NCBI RefSeq assembly: GCF_023055435.1
Contig: NW_025963802.1
Coordinates: 28,334,001 to 28,398,000, forward strand
DNA length: 64,000 nucleotides
From: Haliotis rufescens
Lineage: Eukaryota
Reading direction: 5' to 3'
How positions within the stretch are numbered: position 1 is the stretch's first letter; each line of letters opens with the position of its first letter. Below, piece by piece: positions 54,001 through 63,000 of this stretch. A program made the position numbers.

Positions 54001-57000
54001 GTGACAACTGCTCAATAAACCGTGTTTGTGTTTATATTCAAGTTGGTATTTCCGCTATCCAAAGTGTGCAGTCTTATTGTTGATAGTCATTTTGGAGAAA
54101 TGAATGCGAAGTTAATTAATGCGAGCAAAGACCACTTGCATTTTTTACATGTAATTCACGCTCACGTTAATTTCAAGATTTACAGTATATCATACAAATG
54201 ATTTATCATAATTTTCAAAAATATCACTTCTTTTCATAAAATCACCTTAATGATGCCTGTTAAAAATATTACCCAGCAACTGGCCATGCATTTAGATAGA
54301 CCAAGCAACTCCCTCCTTAAGAACTACCTGGTACCCGTCAGTTGGCAAAGCTGTCATGGAACATGACCGATGACAAACAAACCCTAGTGGTACATGCTGA
54401 CCAGTTACAATCAATTTCAAGTCAATTCATGCTAACATCCAAGTACAGCCTGGTAATGCCATTTTTCTGGAAATTCATTACAAAAATAAAGTGAATGTCT
54501 TTACAAATTTCTAAAGCATACAACTTCTTATGAAATGATGAATGTTTAAAGAGTCTAATATATAATAAAGATGAATTATGAATAACACTGACAAAATCTG
54601 GACCTGAAACAAGTGCCATGAAATATATTAGATATACAAGTCGCTCATCTAATAAATATGTGGTTAGACATATACTGTTTAAAGTCTGTTTAACAGACTC
54701 AAAATGAAAAAGAGACACAAAAAGTACAAGATAGTAGGCATAGGCATAAAAGAACAACTCTATTACAGTATGGTGACTACATGCGTGTACGACAAGCTAC
54801 CTGTAAATATATGCTGGGTATACCTGAGTATCGCACAAGGCAAAAGGGTGAGATAATTTGAGTCCACTAGCCTTCACATCTCAACAAAGGCTAAATTTTC
54901 ACTTAAGAACATCAAGTGGCAAATAAAACATTTGAAAGTTTCGAAATGTCATTTGCTTTCCACAAATCAGTTTTTCATGAAGACATAAATGATGTCAGAA
55001 CACCAGTGATCAGTTGATGTTTGTTATAATAGTCTGAACAATATTCCACTAGCCAAAGGTATTTATAGCCATCAGTACATACATTGACAGCTATCTATAC
55101 ACATGAAAGCTGTCTGTATATATGCATGTAGCTACAGCTATGTTTACATTGGGTTATTCAGAGAGCATCACCAGTACTAGGCAACCTGTTGAGTACATTA
55201 GGATCTACTACAATGATATCCAGAGATGGACCGACACATGCCGTAGGCCTCTGGCTGGAGTACTGCCTGGCACAAACACAGGCTGCAGTCCAGACATTGG
55301 GGTACTGGCCCTGCTCTCATACACTGAATTCTGGATTACTTTCCAAGCTAAACAAAGGCTATACTTCAATACACCATCACCATGTGGTTCCTACCAATAT
55401 TTACATGTCAACAGAAGAAGAATATGTTAAACTAACATGGTCACCTGAATGCAACATTTCAATGTAGATACTAACAACATTATCAAGCAAGGTAACAGTG
55501 TTAGTATCTTCACCTAAACATTGCATTCATTGTAATATATCCACAGAACTATCTCCCTTGTCCATCATACTACTTCTAAAGGCCACCTAAAGAAGTGAAC
55601 ATGGTCAAATGGATAAACAACAACACCATTGAGGGAACATAATAGCAGAACCTATTCTACAGGTAAATGTAACTGAGTTCCAAACACCAAGACAAGTGTT
55701 GTATCCCGTGGGGAACTGCTTGGTGATCTGCAGCCCTCTGTGCATAGCGAGATGACAAGATTCACATGACAGAGCACCACGACCTGGACTTGGTAGTGGT
55801 GATCTCCATGTCCCCACTTGACGACATGTACCTAGTGCTGTACTCTTCTCCAACCATGTCATCGTCATCATCATTCTCCTCTTCATCATCCTCTCTATTC
55901 CCGGAGTAGCTATACTTACTTGATGTGTAGGATCCATCCAAGATGCTGTTCTCATTTCCATATCCACCCCTAGTGCTTGAGGACTTGTACAATGTTCTTG
56001 ACATGTTCTGCCTGCTTGAGCGGACAGCACTTCCAAAGGAAGACCTGAGACTAGAGTTAGATGACAGTCTTCCTACAGGTGTGCTTGAAACCAGTGGACT
56101 GTCGACCAAGTCAGTACTGTCATTAAAACGCCGTTTCTTGGCAGTAAGGCTTTCATAAAAGGGGGTAAGAGCAGTCTTGCGTTTCTGACCAGACTTTAAT
56201 GCCACAGGGGAAAAGCCTTCAGTGGATCTATATGTTGACGTTACAGATTCAATAGATTTCTTTGCAGAGCCACTCCCAGATTTTAAACCTGTAAATGATT
56301 GTGGTGTTCCAACTGATCTTGTTTTTGAGGATGTCTCTTCCAAAGAAGACCTGGATGTATTCTGGAGCTTTTTTCGCGGTGAAGCTTTGCTGCTGGTCTG
56401 TGAGGTCAATGAGATTGTGGTCAGTTTGATGTTAGGGGTCAAGGGTGATGCAACAGATCTCCTCTTCTGTCCAGATTTAACTGAAGATGATGATTGCCGT
56501 CTAGAACCGGTGGATGATCTCTTAGCTGAACTAAGAGAAGATCGGGACAGAGATTTTCTTTTTACAGACTTGGGTGTTCTTGGGCCAGATGAAGAGTCTG
56601 TTTTAATTTCTGTGGACAAGAAAGATGAACTTGCGACTTCAAGAGATTTTCTGGCTTTTGAAGAATTCACATGGGTTCTCTTCTGTGATCCGGAGGAAGA
56701 CCTGGCAGATCTCTTTGTGGATGATTTCTTCTTGAAACTAGATTTTGAGGTTGAAGGTGTCTGTTGAGATTTAACCGGAGTGGATCGGCTAGATGACTTT
56801 GATGATTTCCTACTTGACTTAGGAGTTACTTTCCTTGGTGAACGCGATCTGCCTCTTGATCTAGATTTAGCTGAAGTTTTTCTTGGGGTTGTACCAGGTG
56901 TTTCTTCTTCAGTTGATGCCACACTTGTGATAGATATATCTGATCTATCGGAGTCACTCTTGTACTCTTCAAATTTCCTTGAGTGTGATCTGGATGACTT

Positions 57001-60000: not shown

Positions 60001-63000
60001 GTGTGATCTGGGGTTGGCGTATTGGCACATGGAAAGTATTGCAAAATATTTCGATATGGAGATCTGTAATAAGATACATACTGGGGCCCAAATTATATAT
60101 ATATTTGTACTGTTCAAATGGTACTGCTTCACTCAATAATGCAAACTTCAGATTATGAGATAGGTTTTGACAGTATGGATAGATAAAACTACCTATTACA
60201 TCATGAATATGGAATGTTAAAACAAACAAGTATAAAAGCAAACATTTCACTAAGGTAAGGTACTAAGGAAACACTTGTGATCCACTCATACAAAGTATGT
60301 TTGTTAACGAAACAAAAGAACAAATATCAGATATATTTCATTTCCTAAGGGGGGTCAAGGTGTCCCAGTTGTCTAAGGCACCGCAATTCGCTGTGCAGAG
60401 AAACCTATGGTTGTGGGTTCGAATCCTGGTTCGCCCTGATTATGTTTCTAGGTTTGTCAGCACCATACTTGTGCTTGTGGGTTTCACCGAAGTGGTAAAC
60501 ATCTAAGACCTGCATCACTTCGAGCTTTCCTCCCACATAAGCTGACATGCCGTGATATAACTGGAATACTGTTAAAAGCGGCGTTAAACACGACTCACTC
60601 TTTTATTAGTGGATCCGTAAACCAAATGAAGACAATATCACTTACGCATGCTTAAGGGGCCTGAAAAAATCATTCACTTTTGAAAATAAATGGGCACTCA
60701 AATATTTACCAATGATTTAGACATTACAACACTTACAGTGCCCTTGTCCCAATGGGGCTGTTCAGTGTCCTACTTGATGAGACCAGGGTGGTCACTCGAG
60801 AGGATGATGATCTGATGACAGTTGTCCTGCTGCTGCTGCTGCCACTAGACGTCGACGACTTCTGTATGACACTTATTCTTCTGCTTGGCATGGTTCAAAG
60901 TATAGGCATCACACGCTTACCTGCAAGGGAGATAACTCATGTCAGCATGAAGGTATGGAACAAACAATATAAAACATTTACTGTCACATATTTGTTGAAG
61001 GATAGTAGATAATACTAGATATATACTGAAGGATTGTAGATATATACTTAAATATGTATAAGATTTTGGCACAAACATTAACAATAATACCAGCGATAGA
61101 AACTAACAGGTTTGAACCACTAGTCCTTATAATGATAACATATAGCAAAACCCTTAATAAAAAGGGCAAATTTCTACTAGTCCTTATGATACCTTAACTA
61201 TTGGGCAGTTTGGCAAGGACTACAGGACTAGTGCCAATTTCTAACGCTGAATACTAAATAAAATGCCAATTAATAATATTTGAACAAGTTCAGATGTTCA
61301 GTATTTTTACAATAATATATGTATCTGTATTTTTTTTACAGTGTTTGACACGGACCAAAATTGGTCAGTGGTCCAAACAAGTTACAGTGTTCCTGCTAGC
61401 TTTTGAAACAGCCAGTCCTGGTGGACGGGCAACTCTAAAAACTACCAGTCCCCACTAATTTTTGCCAATCCCAACTTTCAACAAATTAAAAAAACACATA
61501 TGAAAATTATTTAGTTTTAAGTCTTTCAACATCATGTTTAGTGCAAAGAAGTCATCTCTGAAGTAACTTAATTAAATCTATACGTTATCCGCACAAACTT
61601 CAGTCACAGATTTCTCCATTTTTTAAAAATATTTCGAGACAAAGTTGCTACAAATGGATATTTAACCTAGAAATAGAGTAGACAGGGGGAAACCCTGATG
61701 GTAACAGACAAGCTGACTTTGTTAAAAAATGTACTTATATAAATATCACCAATGTTTTGTTCAACAACAAAGATATACAAGGTAATTTATTTGCCGGTCC
61801 ACAGGGACTGGCAGGCATGAATTACCGGTCTAAGCCTAATTTTACAGGTACAAAAATGGTAATTACCAGCATGGGAACGCTGAGTTAACAACCAACACCA
61901 ATAATTATCTACTGGTTCTGTTGGATCTCTACTGGACACAATGCTGCTGACAAAAATAGGTGTTAGATGGTAGTACTTCATTGTAATACTACAAGCTGTT
62001 TACAAAATGGCAGTAAAATAAGACAAGTTAATGCTGGTCAACTTCAAATGTTTATTTGCTTGCAACAGGTCAAATCTTCACGTGTGTGTGACACATCCAC
62101 TAGTTCCCTTCCTGTGTTTTCGCAGATACTTTATCATGTTTATACAACAAGTGAGCGTATTTACTAGAATGAGAAACCAGTCAAGAAGGTACCACACACC
62201 ACACACAGTTGTTTAGGTTGCTGATTTAATTAAAGCTTAGTCAATCTGTCGCTGATATCAAAAGTCGAACAAACTCAAATTACTTTGTCCTCCCCAATAT
62301 AACACTAGACCACCATTCATAAGACAATATGTTAGACTTGGACCAGCGTTTGTGCCAAACGCTCTGTAAGAACGTATTGTATTTTATACAGATCTATATT
62401 ATATAGCCTAGAGGTATTTGCAATTGTACTGTAGTTCTCTGTCTCTGAAAAGGAACTTATTTCACAGAAAAAAAGTTGTTAAATTATAGTCATAAAAAAT
62501 AATAAAAAGGAGCCCATATACTTTCTTCATTTTTATACTGCAGTAATCTAGACTTGCCAAATATGGACTTGCATGGGCTGTTTAGGATATATTTGTTTCA
62601 GGGTCTGTTTGACAGAATATGTAGATCTAGCTTTTCAATTTCCTAATACATCAATGATGAAGCTGTCAAGTTAATAAAAATAATCTATGAATACTATTTC
62701 TTTTTATTCTGTTTTGCAATGGTGTCTGACAGTCGAGTCCAAGAAACAAAAAAATATGAAAAGTCCCGAGAATCTCATGACCTTTGGCAGCTGTTTGTTT
62801 TGAACTAACACAAATGACTGGTCAAAATTTATTAAAGTACCTCTACATAGTCGATACGTTACCTTGTTGCAGAGCCACCCAACTAACTCCTGGAATTATT
62901 GATTTCGTTATACAGCTGACCTATTTCCACTCTCAACTTACTATTGCCAGGTACAATATGTAGCCTTACAGCAGGAAATAAAATAGTTTCACTCAGAGAT

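What the first reader, a model, noticed from the sequence alone, without database searches (positions are those of the whole stretch)
55762..60891. Candidate prenylated chromatin-to-nuclear-envelope tether: ~864 aa H1-tail/protamine-like protein ending in a lamin-B-style acidic patch plus CaaX (CSVM)
Seen: a three-coding-exon ORF dominated by Ser/Lys/Arg with no recognisable folded domain. It has many S/TPxK/R motifs (SPKK, TPKR, SPRK, TPRK, TPKS, TPRR, SPLK, SPNK), NLS-like clusters (PPKRR, QKRRR, KKRRF), two STPV motifs, then EDDEEENDDDDD and terminal SRSWCSVM*. Established: CaaX with X=M is a farnesylation signal (prelamin A CSIM, lamin B1 CAIM); NLS plus CaaX targets proteins to the inner nuclear membrane, as in lamins and Drosophila Kugelkern; SPKK-type motifs bind DNA in histone H1 tails and sperm basic proteins and are CDK sites. 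Inference: a non-lamin farnesylated basic protein that could anchor DNA to the nuclear envelope and be released by mitotic phosphorylation. I do not recognise it as a named gene.
Basis: partly seen in the sequence, partly recalled or inferred. Interest (0 to 1): 0.75.

Follow-up and report, generated by a model that had tools for sequence, protein, structure and literature searches.

The report
Disordered basic protein ending in CaaX
An animal gene encodes a long, floppy, positively charged, serine-rich protein whose only conserved part is a tail combining a nuclear-import signal, an acidic patch and a lipid-anchor signal, so it may sit at the inner face of the nuclear envelope, but this is untested.

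Summary
On the minus strand three GT-AG-bounded exons (60891-60737, 58388-58260, 58072-55762) sum to 2595 nt, which is 864 codons plus a stop, and every quoted motif is present. The 769-aa main exon is 27% Ser and 21% Lys+Arg, with pI 11.2. [ST]P sites occur at twice the shuffle expectation. The single cysteine is the CaaX cysteine. AlphaFold2 predicts disorder. Pfam, PDB and the ESM Atlas return nothing. An exhaustive phmmer scan of 1.84 billion representatives gave one relative, the unnamed 141-aa P0001. It aligns only to the last ~145 residues and also ends in a CaaX with X=M (CSLM). Conservation is blockwise: 29 of 36 in a bipartite-NLS-like block, 9 of 30 in the linker, 7 of 8 at the end. 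The gene is therefore real and lineage-restricted, with a conserved NLS / acidic / farnesylation tail. Nuclear-envelope anchoring in the manner of Kugelkern or a lamin-B tail is the best reading. Localisation and chromatin binding remain inference. The "H1/protamine-like" label is weak. The source organism, exons 1-2 and transcripts are unverified.

The parts
60737..60891 (-). Predicted coding exon 1 (155 nt; ATG at 60891; 51 codons + 2 nt; Ser/Thr/Arg-rich). Ends before donor GTAAGT.
   Evidence: In-frame TGA two codons upstream of the ATG. No homologue or transcript covers it.
58389..60736 (-). Intron 1 (GT...AG). Holds a 171-bp tandem repeat (58923-59318) and an interspersed repeat (60399-60600).
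58260..58388 (-). Predicted coding exon 2 (129 nt, phase 2 in and out). Pro/Ser-rich, 7 [ST]P in 42 residues.
   Evidence: Splice signals only.
58073..58259 (-). Intron 2 (GTTAGT...CCCAG)
55762..58072 (-). Coding exon 3 (2311 nt including the stop at 55762-55764). 769 aa, pI 11.2, K+R 165 against D+E 56, predicted disordered.
57856..57876 (-). The only predicted helix in exon 3 (7 residues; pLDDT about 45-47)
55765..56211 (-). Conserved C-terminal module, the only part with a detectable relative (P0001)
   Evidence: (tblastn 56211..55765)
56128..56184 (-). Bipartite-NLS-like element (KRK, 12-residue spacer, KKRR) inside the best-conserved block
   Evidence: Assignment as an NLS is by pattern only.
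55858..55893 (-). Acidic run (12 of 12 residues D/E/N). P0001 has an acidic run at the same place.
55765..55776 (-). CaaX box CSVM, containing the only cysteine of the predicted protein, followed by TGA

Best explanation
This is a real, lineage-restricted animal gene. It encodes an ~864-aa intrinsically disordered, Ser-rich polybasic protein. Its functional core is a ~145-aa C-terminal string of linear motifs: a bipartite NLS, S/T-P sites, a Tyr/Gly patch, an acidic run and a farnesylation CaaX (CSVM).

Proposed mechanism (inferred): cytosolic farnesyltransferase modifies the single cysteine. The NLS carries the protein into the nucleus, and the farnesyl group holds it on the inner nuclear membrane, as for B-type lamin tails, Kugelkern and artificial NLS-CaaX reporters. 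The ~700-residue basic body reaches into the nuclear periphery and binds chromatin or nucleic acid electrostatically. Its many Ser/Thr sites, including 31 proline-directed ones, would let kinases weaken that binding.

Shown: the gene structure signals, composition, predicted disorder, absence of known domains, and conservation of the NLS block, the acidic run and the CaaX in one relative.

Inferred: prenylation, nuclear import, membrane location, chromatin contact and phospho-regulation.
For: - Splice model and open frame.
- The sole Cys is at -4 in the window protein and in P0001 (read).
- P0001 aligns to query residues 627-770 right up to its own last residue, E 1.3e-20, and ends in CSLM.
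- Block conservation is 29/36 (NLS block), 9/30 (linker) and 7/8 (end), the pattern expected for selected linear motifs.
- Disorder: mean pLDDT 34 and 49.
- Literature read as passages: CSVM is Rheb's farnesylated CaaX (PMC7255682). CaaX boxes ending in M were fully modified by human FTase in a yeast reporter (PMC11152559).
- PMC2947476 gives Kugelkern as a 570-aa non-lamin protein with an NLS and a CaaX. It reports, citing earlier work, that a GFP-NLS-CaaX chimera acts on the nuclear membrane.
- CSVM and CSLM are listed as lamin CaaX boxes (PMC10125929).
- The acidic run just upstream of the CaaX argues against the farnesyl-plus-polybasic plasma-membrane signal (inference from established K-Ras4B-type targeting; recalled).
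Against: - There is only one relative, a 141-aa unnamed sequence from a 655-nt contig. Conservation therefore rests on two sequences of unknown divergence.
- No transcript evidence exists for this locus.
- Exons 1-2 are unsupported by homology.
- The NLS is a pattern match, not a tested signal.
- Rheb carries the same CSVM and sits on cytoplasmic endomembranes, so the tetrapeptide itself does not specify the nucleus.
- With 209 Ser and 63 Thr, heavy phosphorylation could cancel the +109 net charge, so DNA binding is not assured.
- SPKK-type motifs are sparse (10 in 769 aa).
- AF2 was run without a deep alignment, so low pLDDT is weak proof of disorder.
Confidence: 0.4

Rival explanations
1. 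The protein is farnesylated but cytoplasmic. The lipid places a disordered polybasic scaffold on ER, Golgi or lysosomal membranes, as for Rheb with the same CSVM, and the basic clusters bind acidic lipids or RNA rather than serving as NLSs.
For: CSVM is Rheb's CaaX, and Rheb is an endomembrane protein (PMC7255682). There is no second cysteine for palmitoylation. The NLS assignment is by pattern only.
Against: The best-conserved block (29/36) has the classical bipartite spacing, KRK, 12 residues, then KKRR. Eleven runs of three or more K/R are present. The acidic run next to the anchor would repel acidic membranes (inference).
Confidence: 0.15
2. The farnesyl group is a protein-protein handle, not a membrane anchor. 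The protein would be a mitotic or chromosomal CDK substrate recruited through its prenylated end, as recalled for the farnesylated kinetochore proteins CENP-E, CENP-F and Spindly. Alternatively it could be a histone-binding factor acting through its acidic run.
For: [ST]P sites are twofold enriched (0 of 2000 shuffles reach the observed count). The acidic run and Tyr-rich patch in front of the CaaX are conserved. The comparison with kinetochore proteins is recalled and comes from no call.
Against: Those proteins are long coiled coils, whereas here AF2 finds only a 7-residue helix. No sequence relation to any known family was found.
Confidence: 0.15
3. It is a nuclear Ser/Lys/Arg-rich RNA-processing, speckle or nucleolar protein, and the CaaX is of little functional weight.
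For: The composition resembles RS/SK-rich nuclear proteins more than H1 or protamine. There are 53 RS+SR and 57 KS+SK dipeptides, and S is 27%.
Against: The end of the protein is among its most conserved parts (7/8) while the linker has drifted (9/30). The lone Cys sits at -4 in both sequences. No RRM or other RNA-binding domain is present.
Confidence: 0.1
4. The model is partly wrong or the gene is not expressed. Exons 1-2 may not belong to it, the start may be the first Met of exon 3, or an isoform may splice out at the GTAAGT at 55919 and lose the CaaX.
For: No transcript or homologue covers exons 1-2. One strong donor-like site lies inside exon 3. The exact exon-3 ORF is absent from the 15-billion-protein collection. 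There is no AATAAA/ATTAAA for 3.4 kb after the stop.
Against: The 770-codon open frame has a chance probability of about 9e-20. P0001 reads through the equivalent of 55919 and stops at the same C-terminus. All four splice signals are canonical and in phase. About 0.6 GTAAGT are expected by chance in 2.3 kb (own arithmetic).
Confidence: 0.1

Closest known systems
Drosophila Kugelkern (Kuk / Charleston)
   Same: Non-lamin nuclear protein of several hundred residues with an NLS in its C-terminal part and a terminal CaaX. It acts at the inner nuclear membrane through the farnesyl group (PMC2947476, passages).
   Different: Kuk has a putative coiled coil (aa 137-184) that is required for activity. 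Here the longest predicted helix is 7 residues. No sequence similarity to anything except P0001 was returned. This protein is larger (864 against 570 aa) and far more basic and Ser-rich. This is an analogy, not family membership.
C-terminal tail of B-type lamins
   Same: An NLS followed at a distance by a CaaX ending in M. CSVM and CSLM themselves occur as lamin CaaX boxes (Lepeophtheirus salmonis and Salpingoeca rosetta, table in PMC10125929).
   Different: No Filament rod and no lamin-tail Ig fold (0 Pfam families at E<=1). There were 0 PDB chains at E<=1.
Rheb small GTPase (CaaX = CSVM)
   Same: Identical tetrapeptide, experimentally farnesylated. Farnesyl-only anchor with no palmitoyl cysteine (PMC7255682).
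   Different: Rheb is a folded 184-aa GTPase on cytoplasmic endomembranes with no NLS. It has no sequence relation to this protein.
SPK(K/R)-motif sperm histones and H1 tails
   Same: Presence of S/TPxK/R motifs. The abstract listing of PMC9903204 describes sperm H2Bs with SPK(K/R)-rich N-termini.
   Different: No histone or linker-histone domain. Motifs are sparse (10 in 769 aa) and not tandem. S is 27% against K 12% and R 9%. Typical H1 and protamine compositions are recalled.

Membership tests
CaaX farnesyltransferase substrates | Cys at position -4 from the true C-terminus, with X = M/S/Q/A | tested here: met
   CSVM followed by TGA. The relative ends in CSLM.
CaaX farnesyltransferase substrates | Covalent farnesylation of the cysteine | not testable with these tools
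   Inferred only, from the identical Rheb motif and the CxxM reporter data.
Nuclear lamins (type V intermediate filaments) | Central coiled-coil rod (Pfam Filament) | tested here: not met
   0 Pfam families for all three exon translations at E<=1. AF2 finds one 7-residue helix.
Nuclear lamins (type V intermediate filaments) | Lamin tail Ig-fold domain (LTD) | tested here: not met
Nuclear lamins (type V intermediate filaments) | NLS plus C-terminal CaaX | tested here: met
   Pattern KRK, 12 residues, KKRR, plus CSVM. Both are conserved in P0001.
Kugelkern | Sequence homology to Drosophila Kuk | tested here: not met
   phmmer against 1.84 billion representatives returned only P0001, a 141-aa protein. 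Whether Kuk itself is in that library was not verified.
Kugelkern | Putative coiled coil required for activity | tested here: not met
   (no helix longer than 7 residues). The Kuk features come from PMC2947476.
Kugelkern | NLS and farnesylation motif | tested here: met
Linker histone H1 / protamine-like sperm nuclear basic proteins | Winged-helix globular domain, or K/A-rich or R-dominated composition | tested here: not met
   No Pfam hit. K 12.2%, R 9.2%, A 4.9%, S 27.2%.

The most novel reading that the evidence does not exclude
The gene encodes a free-standing 'lamin-tail-like' anchor: an NLS, an acidic run and a farnesyl-CaaX at the end of a ~700-residue phospho-switchable polybasic chain. 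It would tie chromatin, or the lamina itself, to the inner nuclear membrane.

Several lophotrochozoan clades have only CaaX-less lamins. [quoted passage not shown] If the source organism belongs to or is close to such a clade, a protein of this type could supply the missing lipid anchor.

The organism was not identified here, so this link is open.
Probability: 0.1. Interest if true: 0.8.

Novelty: new variant of a known kind. Interest (0 to 1): 0.45.

Why it matters
Outside the lamins, very few proteins are known to use an NLS plus a farnesyl group to sit on the inner nuclear membrane, and Kugelkern is confined to flies.

A second, unrelated and fully disordered example would have two consequences. 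It would show that this targeting logic has been reinvented. It would also give a compact natural model for how a lipid anchor and a charged, phosphorylatable chain organise the nuclear periphery.

It also bears on how species with CaaX-less lamins attach their lamina.

If the protein proves to be cytoplasmic, or the CaaX is not conserved more widely, this is an ordinary lineage-specific disordered protein.

Tried and rejected
Searches that led nowhere:
- Word-indexed searches of exon 3, whole and residues 620-770, among proteins of 423-1348 aa gave 0 hits.
- A profile of the two C-termini among proteins of 77-284 aa returned only P0001 again.
- Pfam at E<=1 for the three exons and at E<=10 for the two C-termini gave 0 families.
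- PDB by sequence gave only chance-level rows (best E 0.19).
- The ESM Atlas for the tail and for whole exon 3 gave no usable hit.
- Exact look-up of four window ORFs found 0 of 4 in the collection.
- No paralogue lies in the window (tblastn).
The exhaustive search has no length limit.

Readings rejected:
- Lamin or lamin fragment: no rod and no Ig fold.
- H1 or protamine: wrong composition and no domain.
- DNA microsatellite artefact: no tandem repeat and six Ser codons in use.
- PP1-docking RVxF, KEN box and D-box motifs: 0 regex matches.

Fold search was not run because both models have low confidence.

Literature: searches turned up no description of a protein like this. That is a word search only and cannot find a sequence. 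Supplementary files were not requested.

Unchecked:
- The source organism.
- Transcripts.
- Any eukaryotic genome or transcriptome nucleotide collection; none was on hand.
- Metagenome contigs and viral contigs, which are closed.
- Genome contigs, which holds prokaryotes only and was not used.
- Exon 1 and exon 2 peptides were run against Pfam only.

I did not take the contig for human.

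
Full report
**What is there.**
On the minus strand an ATG at 60891 opens a 155-nt exon that ends before a GTAAGT donor (60737|60736). A 129-nt exon (58388-58260) follows, bounded by ...CCTGTTAG and GTTAGT. The third exon (58072-55762, 2311 nt) follows ...TCTCCCAG and runs to a TGA. The phases fit and the sum is 2595 nt, which is 864 codons plus a stop. 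An in-frame TGA lies two codons upstream of the ATG, so this exon cannot be extended upstream. The window has no N. As the operators require, I handled the model exon by exon. The joined protein was never built, translated or searched, and the two split codons were left out of all translations.

**Is it more than chance?**
- At the window's own stop-codon frequency (0.055 per codon) a 770-codon open frame has probability about 9e-20.
- Exon 3 contains no DNA tandem repeat.
- Its 209 serines use all six codons (TCA 67, TCT 51, TCC 36, AGT 25, AGC 22, TCG 8). The bias is therefore at the protein level.
- Exon 3 (769 aa) is S 27.2%, K 12.2%, R 9.2%, T 8.2% and P 5.3%, with pI 11.15 and K+R 165 against D+E 56.
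- [ST]P occurs 31 times against 14.5 +/- 2.8 in 2000 shuffles; 0 of 2000 reach 31.
- [ST]Px[KR] occurs 10 times against 3.1 +/- 1.7; 1 of 2000 reach 10.
STPV occurs three times, not two.
- The three exon translations contain one cysteine in total, and it is the CaaX cysteine.

**Relatives.**
- Pfam finds nothing in any exon at E<=1.
- Word-indexed searches of exon 3 found nothing among proteins of 423-1348 aa.
- The exhaustive phmmer search of 1,835,955,588 representatives returned exactly one protein at E<=0.001. This is P0001, 141 aa, E 1.3e-20, matching query residues 627-770 and its own residues 9-141, which reaches its last residue.
- P0001 is an unnamed singleton from a 655-nt contig.
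- A two-sequence profile found no further member among proteins of 77-284 aa.
- PDB sequence searches gave nothing meaningful and the ESM Atlas gave no usable hit.
- The window holds no second copy.
- Four exact ORFs of the window, including exon 3 from its first Met, are absent from the 15-billion-protein collection (0 of 4).

**What is conserved.**
P0001 ends in ...SRSWCSLM and the window protein ends in ...SRSWCSVM. That is 7 of 8 identical residues, the same stop position, and X = M in both. Reading, P0001 also has a single cysteine, at -4.

Over the alignment, 76 of 132 two-sided columns are identical, but unevenly:

| Block | Identical |
|---|---|
| Block holding KRK, 12 residues, KKRR and the following S/T-P stretch | 29 of 36 |
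| Linker after it | 9 of 30 |
| Gly/Tyr-rich patch | 10 of 24 |
| Short stretch after the acidic run | 6 of 7 |
| Last 13 residues | 10 of 13 |

Both proteins have an acidic run before the end. This is the signature of selected short linear motifs in a disordered chain.

**Structure.**
AlphaFold2 on exon 3 alone gives mean pLDDT 34, with 757 of 770 residues below 50 and one 7-residue helix. The C-terminal 162 aa run with the two-row alignment give mean pLDDT 49 and one 4-residue helix. Shallow alignments weaken this result, but it agrees with the composition and the lack of domains.

**Most likely mechanism.**
The steps from here on are inferred.
- CSVM is the CaaX of human Rheb, which is farnesylated (PMC7255682, one passage).
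- CaaX boxes ending in M were fully modified by human FTase in a yeast reporter (PMC11152559, passages).
- CSVM and CSLM are listed as the CaaX boxes of a copepod lamin and a choanoflagellate lamin (PMC10125929, table passage).
- Passages of PMC2947476 describe Kugelkern as a 570-aa non-lamin protein with a coiled coil, an NLS and a CaaX. They report, citing earlier work, that lamin tails and a GFP-NLS-CaaX chimera act on the nuclear membrane.

A conserved bipartite-NLS-like block plus a conserved farnesyl-only CaaX therefore points first to the inner nuclear membrane. The acidic run beside the anchor argues against the polybasic-plus-farnesyl plasma-membrane signal; this is recalled K-Ras4B logic. 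The long basic body (net +109 in exon 3) would bind chromatin or nucleic acid by charge. The 272 Ser/Thr, 31 of them proline-directed, offer a phosphorylation switch. I put this reading at about 0.4.

**Against it, and rivals.**
- The same tetrapeptide sits on a cytoplasmic protein (Rheb), so location depends wholly on an untested NLS. An endomembrane scaffold is at 0.15.
- The farnesyl could be a protein-binding handle on a mitotic or chromosomal CDK substrate, or the acidic run could be a histone-binding site (0.15). The kinetochore comparison is recalled only.
- The composition is closer to RS/SK-rich nuclear proteins than to H1 or protamine (RS+SR 53, KS+SK 57). A speckle or nucleolar protein with a minor CaaX remains possible (0.1), although the conservation of the end speaks against it.
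- The model may be partly wrong (0.1). Exons 1-2 have no support beyond signals. A GTAAGT lies inside exon 3 at 55919, though about 0.6 are expected by chance. No AATAAA or ATTAAA follows the stop for 3.4 kb.

**Comparison with the known.**
The protein would work like Kugelkern or a lamin-B tail, but it is a member of neither family. It has no rod, no Ig fold and no coiled coil, and nothing but P0001 is detectably related. It is not an H1 or a protamine-like protein by domain or composition. I file it as a new variant of a known kind, the non-lamin NLS-plus-CaaX nuclear protein, with function unproven.

**Limits.**
- The organism is unknown. The neighbours show only an animal-type genome: a single-ORF TRC8_N+RING gene (E 3.7e-145), a C2H2 gene, GT-AG introns and interspersed repeats.
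- No eukaryotic nucleotide collection or transcript data were available.
- Paper supplements were not opened. The lamin tables in the supplement of PMC10125929 might bear on the novel reading.
- Word searches of the literature found no description of such a protein, which is weak evidence of absence.

**Verdict.**
Interest is 0.45.

Noticed in passing
15664-17601 (+): Single uninterrupted 645-aa ORF with a TRC8 N-terminal domain (E 3.7e-145) and a RING finger: an RNF139/RNF145-type membrane E3 ligase gene.
   Followed up: partly
24440-25525 (-): 361-aa ORF that starts with C2H2 zinc fingers and continues in a long acidic/Gln-rich non-finger tail. Probably the last exon of a zinc-finger gene.
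   Followed up: partly
12889-13737: 156-bp tandem repeat, 5.4 copies, 93% matches, open in two + strand frames (210- and 220-aa ORFs).
   Followed up: no
49037-49735: 46-bp tandem repeat, 15.2 copies, 92% matches. It produces repeated short minus-strand ORFs.
   Followed up: no
58923-59318 (intron 1 of the gene): 171-bp tandem repeat, 2.3 copies, 84% matches.
   Followed up: no
60399-60600 and 61085-61247: Interspersed repeats. The intron-1 element has partial copies at 22787-22843, 50993-51125 and 45504-45555. The element just 5' of the ATG exon has copies at 1815-1974 and 34357-34504, 86% identical. By eye the intron-1 element looks tRNA-derived, but ARAGORN calls no tRNA there.
   Followed up: partly
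35077-35162 (-): The only tRNA gene called in the window: tRNA-Leu, anticodon TAA. Rfam at gathering thresholds found nothing in the window.
   Followed up: no
30000-34000: The most GC-rich (0.46-0.475) and purine-skewed part of the window. It has overlapping long minus-strand ORFs (31347-32033, 31955-32428), but all three + frames are full of stops. Its nature is unexplained.
   Followed up: partly
52352-55761 (-): No AATAAA or ATTAAA on the sense strand for 3409 nt after the stop codon; the first AATAAA is at 52352. The GC and AT skews at 50-56 kb fit minus-strand transcription. This may be a long 3' UTR or a downstream transcribed region.
   Followed up: partly
42235-42897 (-) and 43386-43709 (-): 220-aa and 107-aa ORFs rich in Ser/Thr/Ala/Pro with no Pfam family. 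They may be exons of another disordered-protein gene.
   Followed up: no
45570-45985 (+): Short overlapping ORFs whose translations reminded me of a Tc1/mariner-type transposase remnant. This is a recalled resemblance, and Pfam gave 0 families at E<=0.01 for both pieces.
   Followed up: partly
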